Shown: positions 2,686 through 58,489 of the stretch, one piece after another | Layout: the number at the start of each line of letters is the position of its first letter | Position numbering within the stretch: position 1 is the stretch's first letter | NCBI GenBank assembly: GCA_951406725.2 | Contig: OX597826.1 | Location: forward strand, 8,928,001 to 8,992,000 | DNA from: Octopus vulgaris | Lineage: Eukaryota | Length of the DNA: 64,000 bases | Direction: 5' to 3' | Notes under the pieces: model-generated | Database searches by the model: none | What the model saw: only the letters and a program-made list of their open reading frames with translations | What the model was told of the DNA's origin: nothing | Made by a program: the position numbers and the translations under genes

Positions 2686-2948
2686 TATAATGAAAATAAG
2701 TATCAAAGATATCCAGAGGTAATGCAGTACGATCGTTTCATGTGAATCCATTTAATTGAACAATACAACCATTACATCAATTTAAAATGTAGAGCAATCT
2801 TCAGCTGCACAAAAAACATAGAATTTCAGCTGAAGATTGCTCTACATTTTAAATTGATGTAATGTTTTCATTGTTCAATTGAATGGAGTCGCATGAAACG
2901 ATCGTACTGCATTACCTCTGGATATCCTTGTTGCTTATTTTTTATTAT
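2686..2948. repeat. Fold-back (about 120-bp arms, about 20-bp spacer) of a hammerhead-bearing Penelope-type terminal repeat
   Basis: 2686-2806 is the reverse complement of 2827-2948. Each arm has CTGAAGA...GAAAC-GATC-GTA. Related pieces at 6376-6475 (-) and 12755-12875 (+). Confidence 0.8.
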
Positions 2949-11509: not shown

Positions 11510-11696
11510 CTTACAAACATTATTTACATTATTTACATTGGACGGATATTTGTCCTCATCTTGTTTGTTGTTACCACAATGTTTCGGCTGATTTACTCTC
11601 CAGCCTTCATCAGGTGTCCTGGTGGAATTTTGATCCCAACCCGGGGTTCTCATTCCTAAGGTATTTTTGATGTTGTTGTTATTATTATTATTATTA

Positions 11697-11773
<77 letters not shown>

Positions 11774-12036
11774 TTCAAATTATTATTATTACTATCATTA
11801 TTATTATTATCATCTACATCATCATCATCATCATAATCATCATCATCATCACAATCATCATCATCATCATCATTATTATTCATTCAAGGCACTGCCTGGA
11901 TTTGAACTTGGAATCTTGTGGTTAATCCGAGGTAGCGTTTAAAAGCGTGGGCTACTAACCCCAAGATTCCGAGTTCAATTCCAGGCAGTGCCTTGAATAA
12001 ATAATAATAATATTAATAACAACAACAACAACGATG

Positions 12037-12114
<78 letters not shown>

Positions 12115-12275
12115 TTAATCACAACAACAACAACAGCAAAAAATAACTTATGAACGAGAACTCAGATTTGGGTTCAAAATTCCACCAGGACACCTGATGA
12201 AGGGTGGAGAGTAAATTAGCCGAAACATTGTGGCAACAACAAACAAAATGAGGACACATAACTCATCTCAAAAAT
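11510..12275. mobile_element. Head-to-head palindrome of a tRNA-Ile-like head + (AAT)n + hammerhead element
   Basis: 11882-11924 is inverted at 11956-11998, the (ATT)n and (AAT)n tracts mirror each other, and 11550-11660 is inverted at 12145-12256. Each arm holds CAC-CTGATGA-A-GG(C/G)TG...AGCC-GAAAC-ATT-GTG. Confidence 0.75.
11575..11616 (-). ncRNA. Minimal type-I hammerhead motif (further copies 12191-12232 + and 50600-50641 +)
   Basis: CAC-CTGATGA-A-GGCTG-GAGAGTAAAT-CAGCC-GAAAC-ATT-GTG. The 50600 copy has palindromic AACGTT at helix III. Confidence 0.65.
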
Positions 12276-12284
12276 ACAGAACAG

Positions 12285-32109: not shown

Positions 32110-32482
32110 ATATTTTCTGTTTTATGGTACTTTAATAAATAATTTTCGTTTATGGTTCTTTAATAAATATTTTTGTTTATGGTACTTTCGTTTGTGGTAC
32201 TTTAATAAATATTTTCGTTTATGGTACTTTCGTTTGTGGTACTTTAATAAATATTTTCGTTTATGGTACTTTCGTTTGTGGTACTTTAATAAATATTTTC
32301 GTTTATGGTACTTTCGTTTGTATTTAATAAATATTTTTATGGTACTTTCGTTTGTGGTACTTTAATAAATATTTTCGTTTATGGTACTTTCGTTTGTGGT
32401 ACTTTAATAAATATTTTCGTTTATGGTACTTTCGTTTGTGGTACTTTAATAAATATTTTCGTTTATGGTACTTTAATAAATT
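32110..32482. repeat. 42-bp minisatellite built from 15/16-bp subunits
   Basis: Unit TTTTCGTTTATGGTACTTTCGTTTGTGGTACTTTAATAAATA repeated about 8 times. Lies between inverted arms at about 31755-31840 and 32720-32800. Confidence 0.95.
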
Positions 32483-36669: not shown

Positions 36670-37564
36670 TTTCTTTACTACCCACAAGGAGCTAAACATA
36701 GAAGGGACAAACAAGGACAGACAAACGGATTAAGTCGATTACATCGACCCCAGTGCGAAACTGGTACTTTATTTATCGACCCCGAAAGGATGAAAGGCAA
36801 AGTCGACCTCGGCGGAATTTGAACTCAGAACGTAACGACAGACGAAATACCTATTTCTTTACTACCCACCATAGGCTAAACACAAGGGATAAACAAGGAC
36901 AGACAAACAGATTAAGTCGATTATATCGACCCCGAAAGGATGAAAGGCAAAGTCGACCTCGGCGGAATTTGAACTCAGAACGTAACGACAGACGAAATAC
37001 CTATTTCTTTACTACCCACCATGGGCTAAACACAAGGGATAAACAAGGGCAGACAAACGGATTAAGTCGATTATATCGACCCCGAAAGGATGAAAGGCAA
37101 AGTCGACCTCGGCGGAATTTGAACTCAGAACGTAACGACAGACGAAATACCTATTTCTTTACTACCCACCAGGGGCTAAACACAAGGGATAAACAAGGAC
37201 AGACAAACGGATTAAGTCGATTATATCAACCCCAGTACACAACTGGTACTTTATTTATCGACCCCAAAAGGATGAAAGGCAAAGTCGACCTCGGCGGAAT
37301 TTGAACTCAGAACGTAACGACAGACGAAATACCTATTTCTTTACTACCCACAAGGGGCTAAACACGGAGAGGACAAACAAGGACAGACAAACGGATCAAG
37401 TCGATTATATCGACCCCAGCGTGAACCTGGTACTTTATTCATCGACCCCAAAAGGATGAAAGGCAGTTCGACCTCGGCGGAATTCGAACTCAGAACGTAA
37501 CGACAGATGAAATACCGCTAAGCATTTCGCCCGGCGCGCTAACGTTTCTGCCAGCTCGCCGCCC
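36670..37564 (-). mobile_element. SINE B concatemer: one head plus four headless units, bounded by one 16-bp TSD
   Basis: Junctions near 36851, 37001, 37151 and 37333; TTAAGTGTAATATATA at 36654-36669 and 37567-37582. Confidence 0.92.
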
Positions 37565-43605: not shown

Positions 43606-44000
43606 TATTTCTTTACTACACACAAGGGGCTAAACACAAAGAGGACAAACAAGGACAGACAAACAGATTAAGTCGATTATATCGACCGCAGTGCGTAGCT
43701 GGTACTTAATTTATCGACCCCGAAAGGATGAAAGGCAAAGTCAACCTCGGCGGAATTTGAACTCAGAATGTAACGGCAGACGAAATACGGCTGACTATTC
43801 ACAAGGGGCTAAACACAGAGGAGACAAACAAGGACAGACACACGGATTAAGTCGATTACATCGACCCCAGTGCGTAACTGGTACATAATTTATCGACCCC
43901 GAAAGGATGAAAGGCAAAGTCGACCTCGACGGAATTTGAACTCAGAATGTAACGGCAGACGAAATACGGCTACACATTTCGCCCGGCATGCTAACATTTC
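43606..44000 (-). mobile_element. SINE B dimer
   Basis: Two tandem copies with a junction near 43790. Confidence 0.85.
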
Positions 44001-49975: not shown

Positions 49976-52499
49976 TTTCCTGATGCCATAGCAGAATGGA
50001 GACCTTAGTACACTCACACACACATATCTTTACTGCTGACATTATTTTAAAGATAATGAGAATAGAAAAAAAGAACATGGTAAAAAAAAATCACTGAAGA
50101 AATATTATGAACATAAAGATTGTCATTTTTCAGATTCATAAATTGAAAAAGAATTTTCTTTTGATAAATTTTCTTGTCAGTCATAAATAAATGATATTGT
50201 AATATATATATATATATTGATTTTTATATTTTTTCACTTATAATTCAGACATTATTTTGCAGCCTTACCAGGGCACTGTCTTCAAGGATTTTGTTTTTCC
50301 CTTTTATTTATTTATTTTCTTTTAGTCAACTATATTAACACTATTTCAGTTAGGTACTTATTTTATAAGTGTGAGGGTTAGCAGAAGGAAAGGCATCAAG
50401 CTGTAGAAACCCACCACAACAAATTCTGTCCAATCAATGCAAGCATGGAAAAGTGGACATTGAAATGATGAGGTTATGATTTGTGGGGGATTTGGCTACT
50501 GTTTTTGGTAGGTTAAACTGTTACAGAATCTCCCTCATTAGCTGTTTTTCTGTCTTAGAATCACCATTAGTCAAATAAAGGTTTGAAATTCCCCAAGAAC
50601 ACCTGATGAAGGCTGGAGAGTACATCAGCTGAAACGTTGTGATAACAACAAACAAGATGGGGACACCTATCCATCCATTATAAATAATGTACATAATTTC
50701 TCATCTCAAAAATATAGAAAGAGTAACGTGTTTTAATGAAACTATGGTAACAGAATTACAGTGTAAAATAGCATCAAGTTGCATTCTTTTATGTCAAAGA
50801 TTATTGAGCTATTTTATAAATGCTGATTATTAACTGTTTAAACTGGCCATATCTGACCAAAATATTTTACCTGTTTTATCTTTGAACTAGCCATATCTGG
50901 TCTCTCATACTTACCCAACAATATTATTCTAAAAATAAACAATTATGTCTCTGGAATTTCAAAGCTACAAGGAAATACTAACTCATATCAATGTGAATAA
51001 ATAAGCATTATATTGACAGAGAAATCTGAGTGCTAAAGGGTTAAAATAAGCACTGGAAGTCCAATAAGATCAACTAAAAACTCTTTGAATGTGGTACCTT
51101 AGTGTGGCCACTGTCCACTGACTGAAACAGTCTGTCAGTCCTATATCATTATTACAAAATTGTAGCATATATGCTTATTTAACATTTAGAAATAGTAGTG
51201 AAATTATGGCAGGGACTGTAGTGTACCTGGCTATATGTGCCTTGATGTATTCCGTTTTAACTTTATCAACTGGATTACCTTTTTCAGCTACAGAAAGAGC
51301 CTCTCAGTGGTTGTTTGACATGTTAGAAATAGCTGTTGAATCTACCTTGAATCAAACCCTACTGTTTTAGGTTTTAAATGCTAAATAATGTAGTCCCAGA
51401 TGTGAAAGGATATGATGGGCATGGTTGGAATGCATTTGATTGTAGGTTTGCTCCATCAAAATTGACTTGAATTTGATCAGCTTTGCTTTCATCAATAAAA
51501 AGAAAAATCTTTATCTGACAATGAAGCCTCTATATAGTTACTTGAACTGCTAGGAATAGCAGCCAAATCACAACATAATGGTTTCAAGTTTTGACATTAG
51601 GCCAGCAATTTCAGGAGAGGAACTACGTTGATTACATTGACCCCCACCAGTGCTCAACTGGTACTTATTTTATCGACCCTTGAAAAGATGAAAGTTAAAG
51701 CCGACCTCAGTGGAATTTGAACTCAGAATGTAAAGATTGAAGAAATGCCACTTGGCATATTGCCTGGCATAAACGATAAGATACATTGGAATCATGAAAA
51801 TGTTCAGAAATATTGTCTAACATAAGGTGGGGAGGATCATAGCTAGAATGCCTTGGATCATAGGTTTACCTGATCAGAGCTAACCTTGGGCTAAATAAAA
51901 ATAACAGCAACCACGAGAATTAATTGAATATAAATACATCATATCATGTAATATATTGCTTAGTTAGCGAAATGTAATAAAACACCAGCCATGATTTTGA
52001 TAATAAAATGTGAGTCATATCATTCTAAAATGAGAGAGAGAAGAATGTAATTCTTTCAATTTTCCCAAATGATTTGATTGAATTCAAGCTTAAATTAAGT
52101 TTACCTGATCACTTGATGTCATATTTCAACAGAGATAATTCCATATGCTATGCTCACTTTCTTTTTCTGTAAACTAGAAGATTTAAATACAAATGCAAGA
52201 AAACATTGATCAGTTATCACTAAAAAATGTTTACATTAGAGAAATGACATAGAAACATTTTTATATACTCATCATTGTATTTATCTTGGATAATAAGAAT
52301 TTATCTTCAGCTTTTGATTTAAAATTTCTGTTTATTCATTGTGTTTGACATTGATATATGTATAAAAGCTAATGATTACTCTTGGCTGTGTGGTTAAGAA
52401 GTTTGGTTCAGAATCAGGTGGTCCTTAGGTTGTTCAATGCCCTATGAATAGAAATGGAAGATGGACACATGAAAGCCTGCTGTGTGTGTGTGTGTCACG

Positions 52500-53630
52500 G
52501 AGTGGTTGGCGTTAGGAAGGGCATCCAGCTGTAGAAACACTGCCAGATCTGACGGCCTGATGAAGCCTTCCGGCTTCACAGACCCCAGTTGAACCATCCA
52601 ACCCATGCTAGTATGGAAAACGGACGCTAAACGATGATGATGAGGAGGAGATATATATATATATATATATCTCACATCATCCTCGTTTAACATCTGTTTT
52701 CCATGGTGGCATGGGTTGGATGGTTTGACTGGAGACTGGTAAGCCAGGAGGCTGCACCAGGCTCCAATCTGATCTGACAATGTTTCTACAGCTGGATGCC
52801 TTTCCTAATGCTAACCACTCTGAGAGTGTTGTGGGTGCTTTTTTAACCAGCCCATTTAAGAATACCCTTCAATCATTAGGCAATAAACTGTGCTTACAAA
52901 GACCTGTTGAGGCAAGTGAAGTCATTGTTGTGGCTGGTAACAGTTCCGTCTGATTGGCACCCATGCCTGTGGCACGTAAAACACACCATTCGCGCATGGT
53001 CGTTGCCAGTGCCACCTGAATAGATCTCATGCCAGTGGTATGTAAAAAGCACCATTCAAGTGTTGCCGATGCCAGTGCTGCCCAACCGGCCCTTGTACTG
53101 GTGGCATGTAAAAAGCACCCACTACACTCTCAGAATGGTTGGTGTTAGGAAGGGCATCCAGCTGTAGAAACATTGCCAGATCAGATTGGAGCCTGGTGCA
53201 GCTTTCAGGCTTGCCAGCCCTCAGTCAAACTGTCCAACCCATGCCAGCATGGAAAGTAGACATGAAACGATGATTATGATGACATACAACAGGTTTCTTT
53301 CAGTTTCTATCTACCAAATCCACTAATGAAGTTTTGGTTGGTCCAAAGCTATAGAAGACATTTGCCCAAGGTGTCACACAGCAGGACAAACCCAGAACCA
53401 TGTAATTAGAAAGCAGACTTCTTACCACACCTTTATATTTACAAGTGTGTGTATATCATCATCATTTAACATCTGTTTTTCATGCTGGCATTGAATAGTT
53501 TGACAGGAGCTGGCTAGGCAGAAGACTGCATCTAGCCGCAGTGTCTGTTTTGGCATAGTTTTTATGGCCAGGCGCCCTTCCTAACACCAACTACCCTGTA
53601 GAGTGGACTGAGTGCTTTTTATGTAGTATC
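52500..53630. mobile_element. Cluster of family D retroposon copies in alternating orientation
   Basis: Motif GAGTGGTTGGCGTTAGGAAGGGCATCCAGCTGTAGAAAC...GGACG(C/T)TAAACGATGATGATG at 52500-52645 (+), 52675-52842 (-), about 52870-53285 (+) and about 53455-53630 (-). Also at 47830-48000, 57860-58377 and 59808-59990. Confidence 0.8.
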
Positions 53631-57300: not shown

Positions 57301-58489
57301 AAACCCTCTTTGATCTGTGGACAGATTTTTACTACTAAAAAAAAAAACTTTGAAAGAATTTTGGACAGCATAATTTACATACTTACAAAAAGTGAGCTAA
57401 AGGAAATAATTCTAGTGGATCAATGATATAGATTTGGGTATTTCAGGTAGAGCAGTATTGAATGATGTATGCCAAACATTATAAATGTATTATATCGATA
57501 GGTGCAGACACAGCTGTGTGGTTGAGAAGTTTGTTTTCCAGCCACATGATTCAGTCCCGTTGTGCAGCACATTAGGCAAGTGTTTTCTACAAGGGCCCTG
57601 GGCTGGCCAAAGCTTTGCAAATGGATTTGGTAGACAAACTGAAAGTTTATATATAATTTAAAGATCCAATAGAGGTAGAATCAACAAAAAAAAGTACTCC
57701 ATCCAGTGAGAGACAAATATCAATTTAAATACACAACTGATAAAGCTATTAAGTTTCATGCTTTTATGATACTTGAACAGGCATATTACAAAATACACCA
57801 CATATCTTAAAGCAATCAAAATTTGTATATATATGTATATATATATCCTGCTGTGCTTACCTTGGACCGTAGGGCAACATGCTGTGCTTGAGGAGATCTA
57901 TTGAGTCAAGTATATCAACTTCAAAATAAAAATCAAATGGAAATTGTAGTTGTGATCCCTGTGCCGATGGCACGTAAAAAACACCATCTGAATGTGGCCA
58001 ATGCCAGCGCCGCCTTGACTGGCTTCCATGCTGGTGGCACGTAAAAAGCACCCACTACACTCACTGAGTGGTTGGCGTTAGGAAGGGCATCCAACTGTAG
58101 AAACACTGCCAGATCAGACTGAAGCCTGGTGCAGCCTCTTGGCTTTCCAGACCCCAGTCGAACTGTCCAACCCATGTTAACATGGAAAATGGACGTTAAA
58201 TGATGATGATATATATATATCATCATCGTCGTTTAACGTCCGTTCTCCATGCTAGCATGGGTTGGACGGTTCGACCGGGGTTCTGGGAAGCCAGAAGGCT
58301 GCACCAGGCTCCAGTCTAATCTGGCAATGTTTCTACAGCTGGATGCCCTTCCTAACGCCAACCACTCCGTGAGTGTAGACATATATATATATATATATAT
58401 ATATAATGTGTTTGTGTCTCTGTCTCAACATTGCATGAGAGCTATTAATGAGTGTCAGTCATACAAGCAATGTTATTGCACAAAACCTG

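What the first reader, a model, noticed from the sequence alone, without database searches (positions are those of the whole stretch)
11510..12275. tRNA-Ile-headed element carrying a hammerhead tail, inserted as a head-to-head palindrome
Seen: 11931-11985 (GTTTAAAAGCGTGGGCTACTAACCCCAAGATTCCGAGTTCAATTCC) closely follows eukaryotic tRNA-Ile(AAU) (GGTTAGAGCGTGGTGCTAATAACGCCAAGGTCGCGGGTTCGATCCC, recalled). It is followed by (AAT)n and then a hammerhead at 12191. The same head-(AAT)n-hammerhead order is mirrored on the minus strand, so the composite was copied as a unit. Known: 5'-inverted insertions are typical of Penelope elements, and Schistosoma SM-alpha is the precedent for SINE-like repeats with hammerheads. 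Inference: a Pol III SINE mobilised by Penelope machinery rather than by a LINE.
Basis: partly seen in the sequence, partly recalled or inferred. Interest (0 to 1): 0.8.

Follow-up and report, generated by a model that had tools for sequence, protein, structure and literature searches.

The report
Penelope retrotransposon end with tRNA-type promoter
This palindrome is two back-to-back, decayed copies of the end repeat of a protein-coding Penelope-type jumping gene; unusually, that end repeat carries a tRNA-derived segment that likely acts as the element's promoter, which would mean it is read by RNA polymerase III rather than the usual polymerase II.

Summary
The palindrome is real: a tRNA-like head, an (AAT)n tract and a minimal hammerhead on each strand, with tens of thousands of relatives in the genome. 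It is not a free SINE. The same unit flanks an RT + GIY-YIG ORF on both sides in full-length copies (L362), and the "tail" is the ORF's own ATG and first codons. It is therefore the pseudo-LTR of an autonomous Penelope/Poseidon-type element. The window copy is a dead, 5'-truncated, inverted insertion. The head fits tRNA-Arg(ACG) better than tRNA-Ile.

The unusual part is the head. Both subfamilies keep an A and a B box. Copy 5' ends pile up at the tRNA start (18 of 33 arms within -19..+3; the head 16-mer is about five times commoner than one 60 nt upstream). The column-majority of the ~2.8-kb element has no TTTT terminator. None of 33 related elements showed an A+B box pair, though that test is weak.

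Best reading: a captured tRNA-type (Pol III) promoter drives the element, and internal reverse-transcription starts produce the SINE-like short copies. The promoter role is inferred; RNA data did not test it. The rival is a relic tRNA plus a fold-back hairpin.

The parts
11517..11924 (-). Inverted arm: 5'-truncated pseudo-LTR copy (subfamily B), ending at the family's short 3' end
11880..11924 (-). 3' part of the tRNA-like head (B-box region; no A box)
11669..11879 (-). (AAT)n/(GAT)n tract
11517..11653 (-). ATG (11653) and first codons of the Penelope ORF; matches the N-terminus of the 847-aa relative P0003
   Evidence: (15/26 identical, pairwise E 2e-05)
11573..11618 (-). Minimal type-I hammerhead; helix II intact, helix-III palindrome broken (CG to CA)
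   Evidence: features from PMC4209133
11925..11930 (.). 6-nt filler at the inversion junction
   Evidence: sequence
11931..11999 (+). tRNA-Arg-like head; A box truncated or partly deleted, B box at 11973-11982
12000..12138 (+). (AAT)n tract
12139..12288 (+). ORF-start segment (start codon decayed to ACG at 12154, in-frame stop, internal deletion); by eye reaches the family's long 3' end, the ~30-nt Penelope tail
   Evidence: the automatic end call stopped at the deletion
12189..12234 (+). Minimal hammerhead, decayed (mismatch in helix II, CG to CA at helix III)
50579..50697 (+). Third, solitary tail-only copy of the same family

Best explanation
The palindrome is a decayed, 5'-truncated, head-to-head insertion of the pseudo-LTR (tRNA-like head, AAT tract, ORF start with hammerhead) of an autonomous Penelope/Poseidon-type retrotransposon, and the tRNA-derived A/B-box head likely serves as that element's internal Pol III-type promoter. 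Shown: the unit flanks an RT + GIY-YIG ORF on both sides; copies end at two fixed sites about 120-130 and 150-160 nt into the ORF; 5' ends crowd at the tRNA start. Inferred: transcription starts at the head of the upstream pseudo-LTR. The element's RT starts internally at those two sites (shown in vitro for an anole Poseidon, PMC11167929). When it copies from the first pseudo-LTR it runs off the RNA's 5' end at the head, giving SINE-sized head-AAT-hammerhead copies without any separate SINE. A second, inverted strand is added by fold-back or template switch, often at the small palindrome at the head's 5' edge. The window copy has lost its A box and its hammerhead helix III and is predicted to be inert. 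Odds: pseudo-LTR identity about 0.95; Pol III-type promoter role about 0.55.
For: Architecture: L362 = ORF end, UTR, head, AAT, ATG/hammerhead, ORF, UTR, head, AAT, hammerhead, end. L332/L361 begins at tRNA position +2 and runs into the ORF. L200 has a 569-aa open frame with Pfam RVT_1 at E 2.7e-06, below the curated cut-off, and the GIY-YIG-type motif CVYSIP...YKGET; 2,989 homologs, a few carrying PF01541. 24 of 30 RT-selected loci continue into head/tail. 3' ends are bimodal: 59 and 49 of 119 arms. 30 of 37 two-armed insertions pair one long with one short end, none long-long (4 more pairs run on into the ORF). This is the tail signature of PMC11167929 and PMC8557442. Promoter: both subfamilies fit A-box and B-box consensus (recalled consensus), and their two A-box differences fall on purine-degenerate positions. 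18 of 33 arms start within -19..+3 of the tRNA start, 0.060 per nt versus 0.012 inside the head and 0.007 upstream (P 4e-05 against the head alone, arms not fully independent). The pile-up remains in 13 of 20 non-inverted arms (22 flagged, 2 dropped by eye as mis-flagged). Exact 16-mers: 1,291 just upstream versus 6,368 in the head, with similar retention, 16/35 and 23/49. No run of 4 T on the sense strand in the column-majority of 65 subfamily-A copies (2,778 columns, 17 T3 runs) or 9 B copies (1,766 columns). All 30 of 30 relative ORFs have such runs, and 60 of 232 T3 runs extend in relatives of like T content (P about 0.006).
Against: There is no direct evidence of transcription from the head. 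RNA reads from three runs of one study, whose species label may not be the window's, lie equally in both directions and show no sharp start; in the one run laid on the ORF's N-terminal part, depth there is 1-12 against about 2,400 in the repeat. Many 5' junctions sit exactly on the TGCCC-AC-GGGCA palindrome, which could by itself cause stops and fold-backs. The 5' ends spread over ~20 nt, not one base. The T-run test is modest: synonymous shuffles give P about 0.03 (0.21 x 0.14); runs of 4 G are also absent; single decayed copies do have T4/T5 runs; and a column-majority was compared with single relative sequences. Pol III is held to be too poorly processive for autonomous elements (PMC10886601 discussion), and its RNA is uncapped (recalled), so translation needs explaining. 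Drosophila Penelope uses a LINE-like TATA-less internal promoter (PMC2377424, abstract only). Hammerhead helices show no two-sided covariation within the family.
Confidence: 0.58

Rival explanations
1. Same Penelope pseudo-LTR, but the tRNA-like segment is a passenger (an old tRNA or SINE insertion). A Pol II promoter drives the element, and the 5' pile-up comes from RT stalling or folding back at the palindrome and tRNA-like fold.
For: Head-to-head junctions cluster on the palindrome at -7..+4 (loose ends at L190:2491). The one mapped Penelope promoter resembles TATA-less LINE promoters (PMC2377424, abstract). Pol III processivity argument. Runs of 4 G are absent too.
Against: The pile-up persists in non-inverted copies (13 of 20). 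The boxes are kept in two subfamilies about 6% apart (103 of 1,741 columns) while the anticodon arm has diverged from tRNA-Arg. No T4 run over ~2.8 kb, against 30 of 30 relatives.
Confidence: 0.27
2. One reading: most short copies come from a self-propagating SINE-like lineage (Pol III head plus Penelope 3' end) mobilised in trans.
For: About four in five head-bearing copies lack upstream sequence. Short copies hold both the boxes and the RT start sites, so they could act as templates. SINE-like elements with a promoter and hammerhead are described in Schistosoma (PMC6765202, passages).
Against: The whole unit is collinear with both ends of the autonomous element and includes its ATG. Both subfamilies have ORF-linked and short copies, and no short-only subfamily appeared among 85 copies.
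Confidence: 0.13
3. Chance juxtaposition of a tRNA relic and a hammerhead-like sequence, later inverted locally.
For: None found; Rfam and ARAGORN are silent on the window copy.
Against: 25 of 29 heads are followed by the tail; 15 of 28 tail-selected and 8 of 14 randomly sampled insertions have an inverted partner.
Confidence: 0.01

Closest known systems
Penelope/Poseidon-clade PLEs, e.g. PAc (Poseidon of Anolis carolinensis; PMC11167929)
   Same: Single RT + C-terminal GIY-YIG ORF, pseudo-LTRs, hammerhead at the ORF start, two internal RT start sites giving a ~30-nt tail, inverted 5'-truncated partner; PAc prefers to cut ATT, and this element carries an (AAT)n tract.
   Different: A tRNA-derived A/B-box segment sits in the pseudo-LTR just ahead of the ATG; no such segment is mentioned in the parts read, and 0 of 33 related elements showed a box pair.
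Minimal hammerheads of metazoan PLEs (PMC4209133)
   Same: Core, extra nucleotide before helix II, G10.1-C11.1 pair, palindromic 15.2/16.2, no loop 3; inverted pairs 100-700 bp apart and many single truncated copies are described there.
   Different: Nothing essential; the hammerhead itself is ordinary.
Helenus, Ajax, Cassandra (TRIMp3; PMC10886601)
   Same: A small-RNA-derived Pol III-type promoter placed inside a terminal repeat, probably by SINE insertion.
   Different: Those are non-autonomous LTR elements of 311-1,263 bp; here the repeat belongs to a ~2.8-kb coding Penelope element.
Schistosoma SINE-like hammerhead repeats (SM-alpha/Sj-alpha; PMC6765202 passages)
   Same: Pol III promoter followed by a hammerhead; tandem copies needed so that the upstream promoter transcribes the next unit.
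   Different: Described as non-coding tandem SINEs; here the unit is part of an ORF-bearing element.

Membership tests
EN+ Penelope-like element (Penelope/Poseidon type) | Single ORF with RT and C-terminal GIY-YIG endonuclease | tested here: met
   L200 569-aa frame; RVT_1 below cut-off; GIY-YIG by motif and by homologs with PF01541, no direct Pfam GIY-YIG hit
EN+ Penelope-like element (Penelope/Poseidon type) | Pseudo-LTRs from partial tandem copies flanking the ORF | tested here: met
   L362, L349, L354
EN+ Penelope-like element (Penelope/Poseidon type) | Minimal hammerhead in the pseudo-LTR | tested here: met
   91% of cells paired versus 16-50% when slid, but no covariation within the family; the same motif with different helix II sequences in 20 of 33 relatives, some near-duplicates; cleavage not tested
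EN+ Penelope-like element (Penelope/Poseidon type) | Optional 30-40-nt tail at one end; inverted 5'-truncated partner | tested here: met
EN+ Penelope-like element (Penelope/Poseidon type) | CCHH and DKG motifs present, no zinc-finger linker (excludes Neptune, Nematis, Hydra, Naiad) | tested here: met
   read by eye from translations against PMC8557442
EN+ Penelope-like element (Penelope/Poseidon type) | RT groups with reference Penelope/Poseidon sequences in a tree | not tested
   no named reference set was at hand
tRNA-derived SINE | tRNA-related head with A and B boxes | tested here: met
   family level (relaxed ARAGORN copies); the window copy's A box is broken
tRNA-derived SINE | Independent non-autonomous lineage distinct from its partner except at the 3' tail | tested here: not met
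   whole unit is part of the autonomous element; no short-only subfamily in 85 copies
tRNA-derived SINE | Discrete 5' end at the tRNA start | tested here: inconclusive
   cluster over -19..+3, not one base
tRNA-derived SINE | Transcribed by Pol III | not testable with these tools
   RNA runs uninformative
tRNA-derived SINE | Target-site duplications | not tested
   no systematic search was made

The most novel reading that the evidence does not exclude
An autonomous, protein-coding retrotransposon of about 2.8 kb is transcribed end to end by RNA polymerase III from a captured tRNA-Arg promoter, has purged TTTT terminators, is translated without a cap, and spawns its own SINE-like short copies.
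Probability: 0.35. Interest if true: 0.87.

Novelty: new variant of a known kind. Interest (0 to 1): 0.62.

Why it matters
Autonomous retroelements are expected to need Pol II (stated for LTR partners in PMC10886601). A coding Penelope element with a tRNA-type promoter would be an exception and would link SINEs, Pol III-driven miniature LTR elements and Penelope elements. Whichever polymerase is used, tens of thousands of near-identical 5' and 3' ends may mark where a Penelope transcript starts and where its RT initiates, which is poorly known in vivo. Practically, such short copies would be annotated as tRNA SINEs when they are Penelope ends. The window copy itself is ordinary and dead.

Tried and rejected
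Rfam scans gave no tRNA or hammerhead hit and ARAGORN none in the window. Single-strand folding does not recover the hammerhead (z 0.25 to -1.96), as expected for a motif that needs a dimer. tRNA-Ile origin was rejected. Within-family covariation: none (an earlier alignment had two rows on the wrong strand, and one search left out those two and three other gapped or offset rows). No RNA holder was listed on record. Raw RNA reads gave no start sites or strand. A short-only subfamily was looked for by diagnostic columns only; no tree was built. The A+B box pattern caught only 2 of 5 decayed own copies, so 0 of 33 in relatives is a weak negative. The random sample is 114 stretches of 10 kb, and a planned enlargement was not obtained, so 5'-end counts stay small. 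Literature searches: searches returned nothing; some searches listed papers, and none that I opened describes a tRNA-derived promoter in a Penelope element. Repbase and Dfam could not be consulted. Ohshima and Okada 1994 on octopus tRNA-derived retroposons was seen only as a reference title and may describe this head. Three look-ups in earlier scan findings were empty.

Full report
Setting. The window is G000:C13:8928001-8992000 in a 2.8-Gb genome. Its repeats look like octopus; that is recalled and comes from no call.

Observation. Two arms lie head-to-head: minus 11517-11924 and plus 11931-12288. Each has a head remnant, an (AAT)n tract and a ~150-nt tail, and the tails are 89% complementary. 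The tail holds a minimal hammerhead with the features listed by Cervera and De la Pena (PMC4209133; parts 1-2 of 4 read): the conserved core, one extra base before helix II, a G-C first pair and a palindromic helix-III stub. In 21 copies 91% of helix cells pair, against 16-50% when slid, but there is no two-sided covariation. The same motif with different helix II sequences follows the ORF in 20 of 33 related elements from metagenomes, some of them near-duplicates. Both window copies have lost the helix-III palindrome, and the plus arm also has a helix II mismatch. Rfam and ARAGORN see nothing here.

It is a large family. 25 of 29 head-selected loci carry the tail downstream and 14 of 28 tail-selected loci carry the head upstream. 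In 114 evenly spaced 10-kb stretches there were 14 insertions, 8 with an inverted partner, or about 34,000 genome-wide (19,000-58,000). Exact 16-mer counts corrected for decay give about 41,000 hammerheads, 13,600 heads and 2,800 copies of the sequence just upstream of the head.

Which tRNA. tRNA genes were taken from the same genome. Over five heads and ten tRNA types, Arg(ACG) ranked first three times and second twice, and Ile(AAT) ranked 6th-8th. The panel is incomplete, so 'Arg-like' is the best of those tested.

It is the end repeat of an autonomous Penelope element. Walking upstream of the head leads, after a ~45-nt UTR, into a GIY-YIG and RT ORF. L200 has a 569-aa open frame, and 24 of 30 RT-selected loci continue into head or tail. 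The tail translates as the ORF's own N-terminus and matches the start of an 847-aa relative. In 15 of 30 loci selected on the N-terminal domain the tail runs straight into the ORF, three of them with the head in front. L362 shows the full layout with the unit on both sides. L332 starts at tRNA position +2 and runs into the ORF, though its 3' half is missing. Motifs read by eye fit Penelope/Poseidon rather than Neptune, Nematis, Hydra or Naiad (PMC8557442, passages and section 11); no tree was built.

The 3' ends fall at two sites, about 120-130 and 150-160 nt after the ATG (59 and 49 of 119 arms). 30 of 37 two-armed insertions pair a long with a short end. The window was scored short-short because of an internal deletion, but its plus arm reaches the long end by eye. 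This matches the two internal RT start sites shown in vitro for an anole Poseidon (PMC11167929; parts 1-2 of 4 read). Both subfamilies include ORF-linked and short copies. A separate SINE is therefore not needed.

The unusual part is the tRNA-like head. It keeps A-box and B-box consensus (recalled) in both subfamilies. 5' ends crowd at its start: 18 of 33 arms lie within -19..+3, five to eight times the rate on either side, and so do 13 of 20 non-inverted arms (2 of 22 dropped by eye). The column-majority of subfamily A has no run of four T over 2,778 columns, nor has B over 1,766 thinly covered columns. All 30 long relative ORFs have such runs. No A+B pair was seen after the ORF in 33 relatives, with a pattern that caught only 2 of 5 own decayed copies.

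Against this reading: many junctions centre on a small palindrome at the head's edge; runs of four G are absent too; the codon-shuffle P is only about 0.03; single copies have T runs; and Pol III is thought too poorly processive for autonomous elements (PMC10886601; abstract, passages and discussion read). RNA reads lie equally on both strands without sharp starts and barely cover the ORF's start, which fits passive transcription of dead copies and tests nothing.

Mechanism (inferred). Transcription begins at the head of the upstream pseudo-LTR, most likely by Pol III. The RT starts internally in the first 130-160 nt of the ORF. Starting in the downstream repeat gives 5'-truncated or tandem copies. 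Starting in the upstream repeat runs off the RNA's 5' end and gives head-AAT-hammerhead copies. Fold-back or template switching adds the inverted arm. How an uncapped RNA would be translated is open.

Prior work. Ten searches turned up no description of a tRNA-derived promoter in a Penelope element among the papers I opened. Also seen: passages of PMC7229834, PMC6765202, PMC13282606 (plus a term search of its one held supplement) and PMC8967140, and the abstract of PMC2377424. Repbase, Dfam, subscription papers and the other papers' supplements were not seen and may already hold this family.

Verdict. The family behind it is a new variant of a known kind with a testable and possibly surprising promoter. 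Interest 0.62.

Noticed in passing
random stretches L123-L180 versus L211-L250 and L255-L270: The family is uneven across contigs: 13 of 58 stretches on C1-C8 hold a copy but 1 of 56 on C9-C27 (Fisher P about 0.001), although this window on C13 has two insertions.
   Followed up: partly
L363:541-661 (G000:C5:92346300-92347600, minus): A palindromic copy whose head has an ACG anticodon and a T-arm closer to true tRNA-Arg(ACG) than the family majority; older state, reversion or conversion.
   Followed up: partly
window 12293-12752, 36774-37233, 43621-43971: Tandem arrays (periods 184, 150, 179) of another abundant repeat sharing one core; one abuts the plus arm's end.
   Followed up: no
G000:C2:211.89-211.91 Mb; G000:C4:51.99-52.04 Mb; L096: Dense single-isotype tRNA arrays: Arg(ACG) at about 206-bp spacing, Ile(AAT) cluster, Cys(GCA) at about 177-bp spacing.
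   Followed up: no
window 2773-2860, 52594-52723, 58155-58278: Long near-perfect hairpins picked up as weak microRNA-family matches; possibly miniature inverted-repeat elements.
   Followed up: no
window 32144-32474: 42-bp tandem array, 8 copies, 93% matched, with a 160-bp higher-order period at 100%.
   Followed up: no
L121:2011-2847 (minus): A 278-aa frame that looks like a mariner transposase (recalled resemblance) directly upstream of a truncated Penelope copy.
   Followed up: no
P0003 and P0119 N-termini: In two distant relatives the hammerhead core appears to be encoded in the first codons of the ORF, in P0119 with a frame shift between its two halves (inferred from the peptides).
   Followed up: partly
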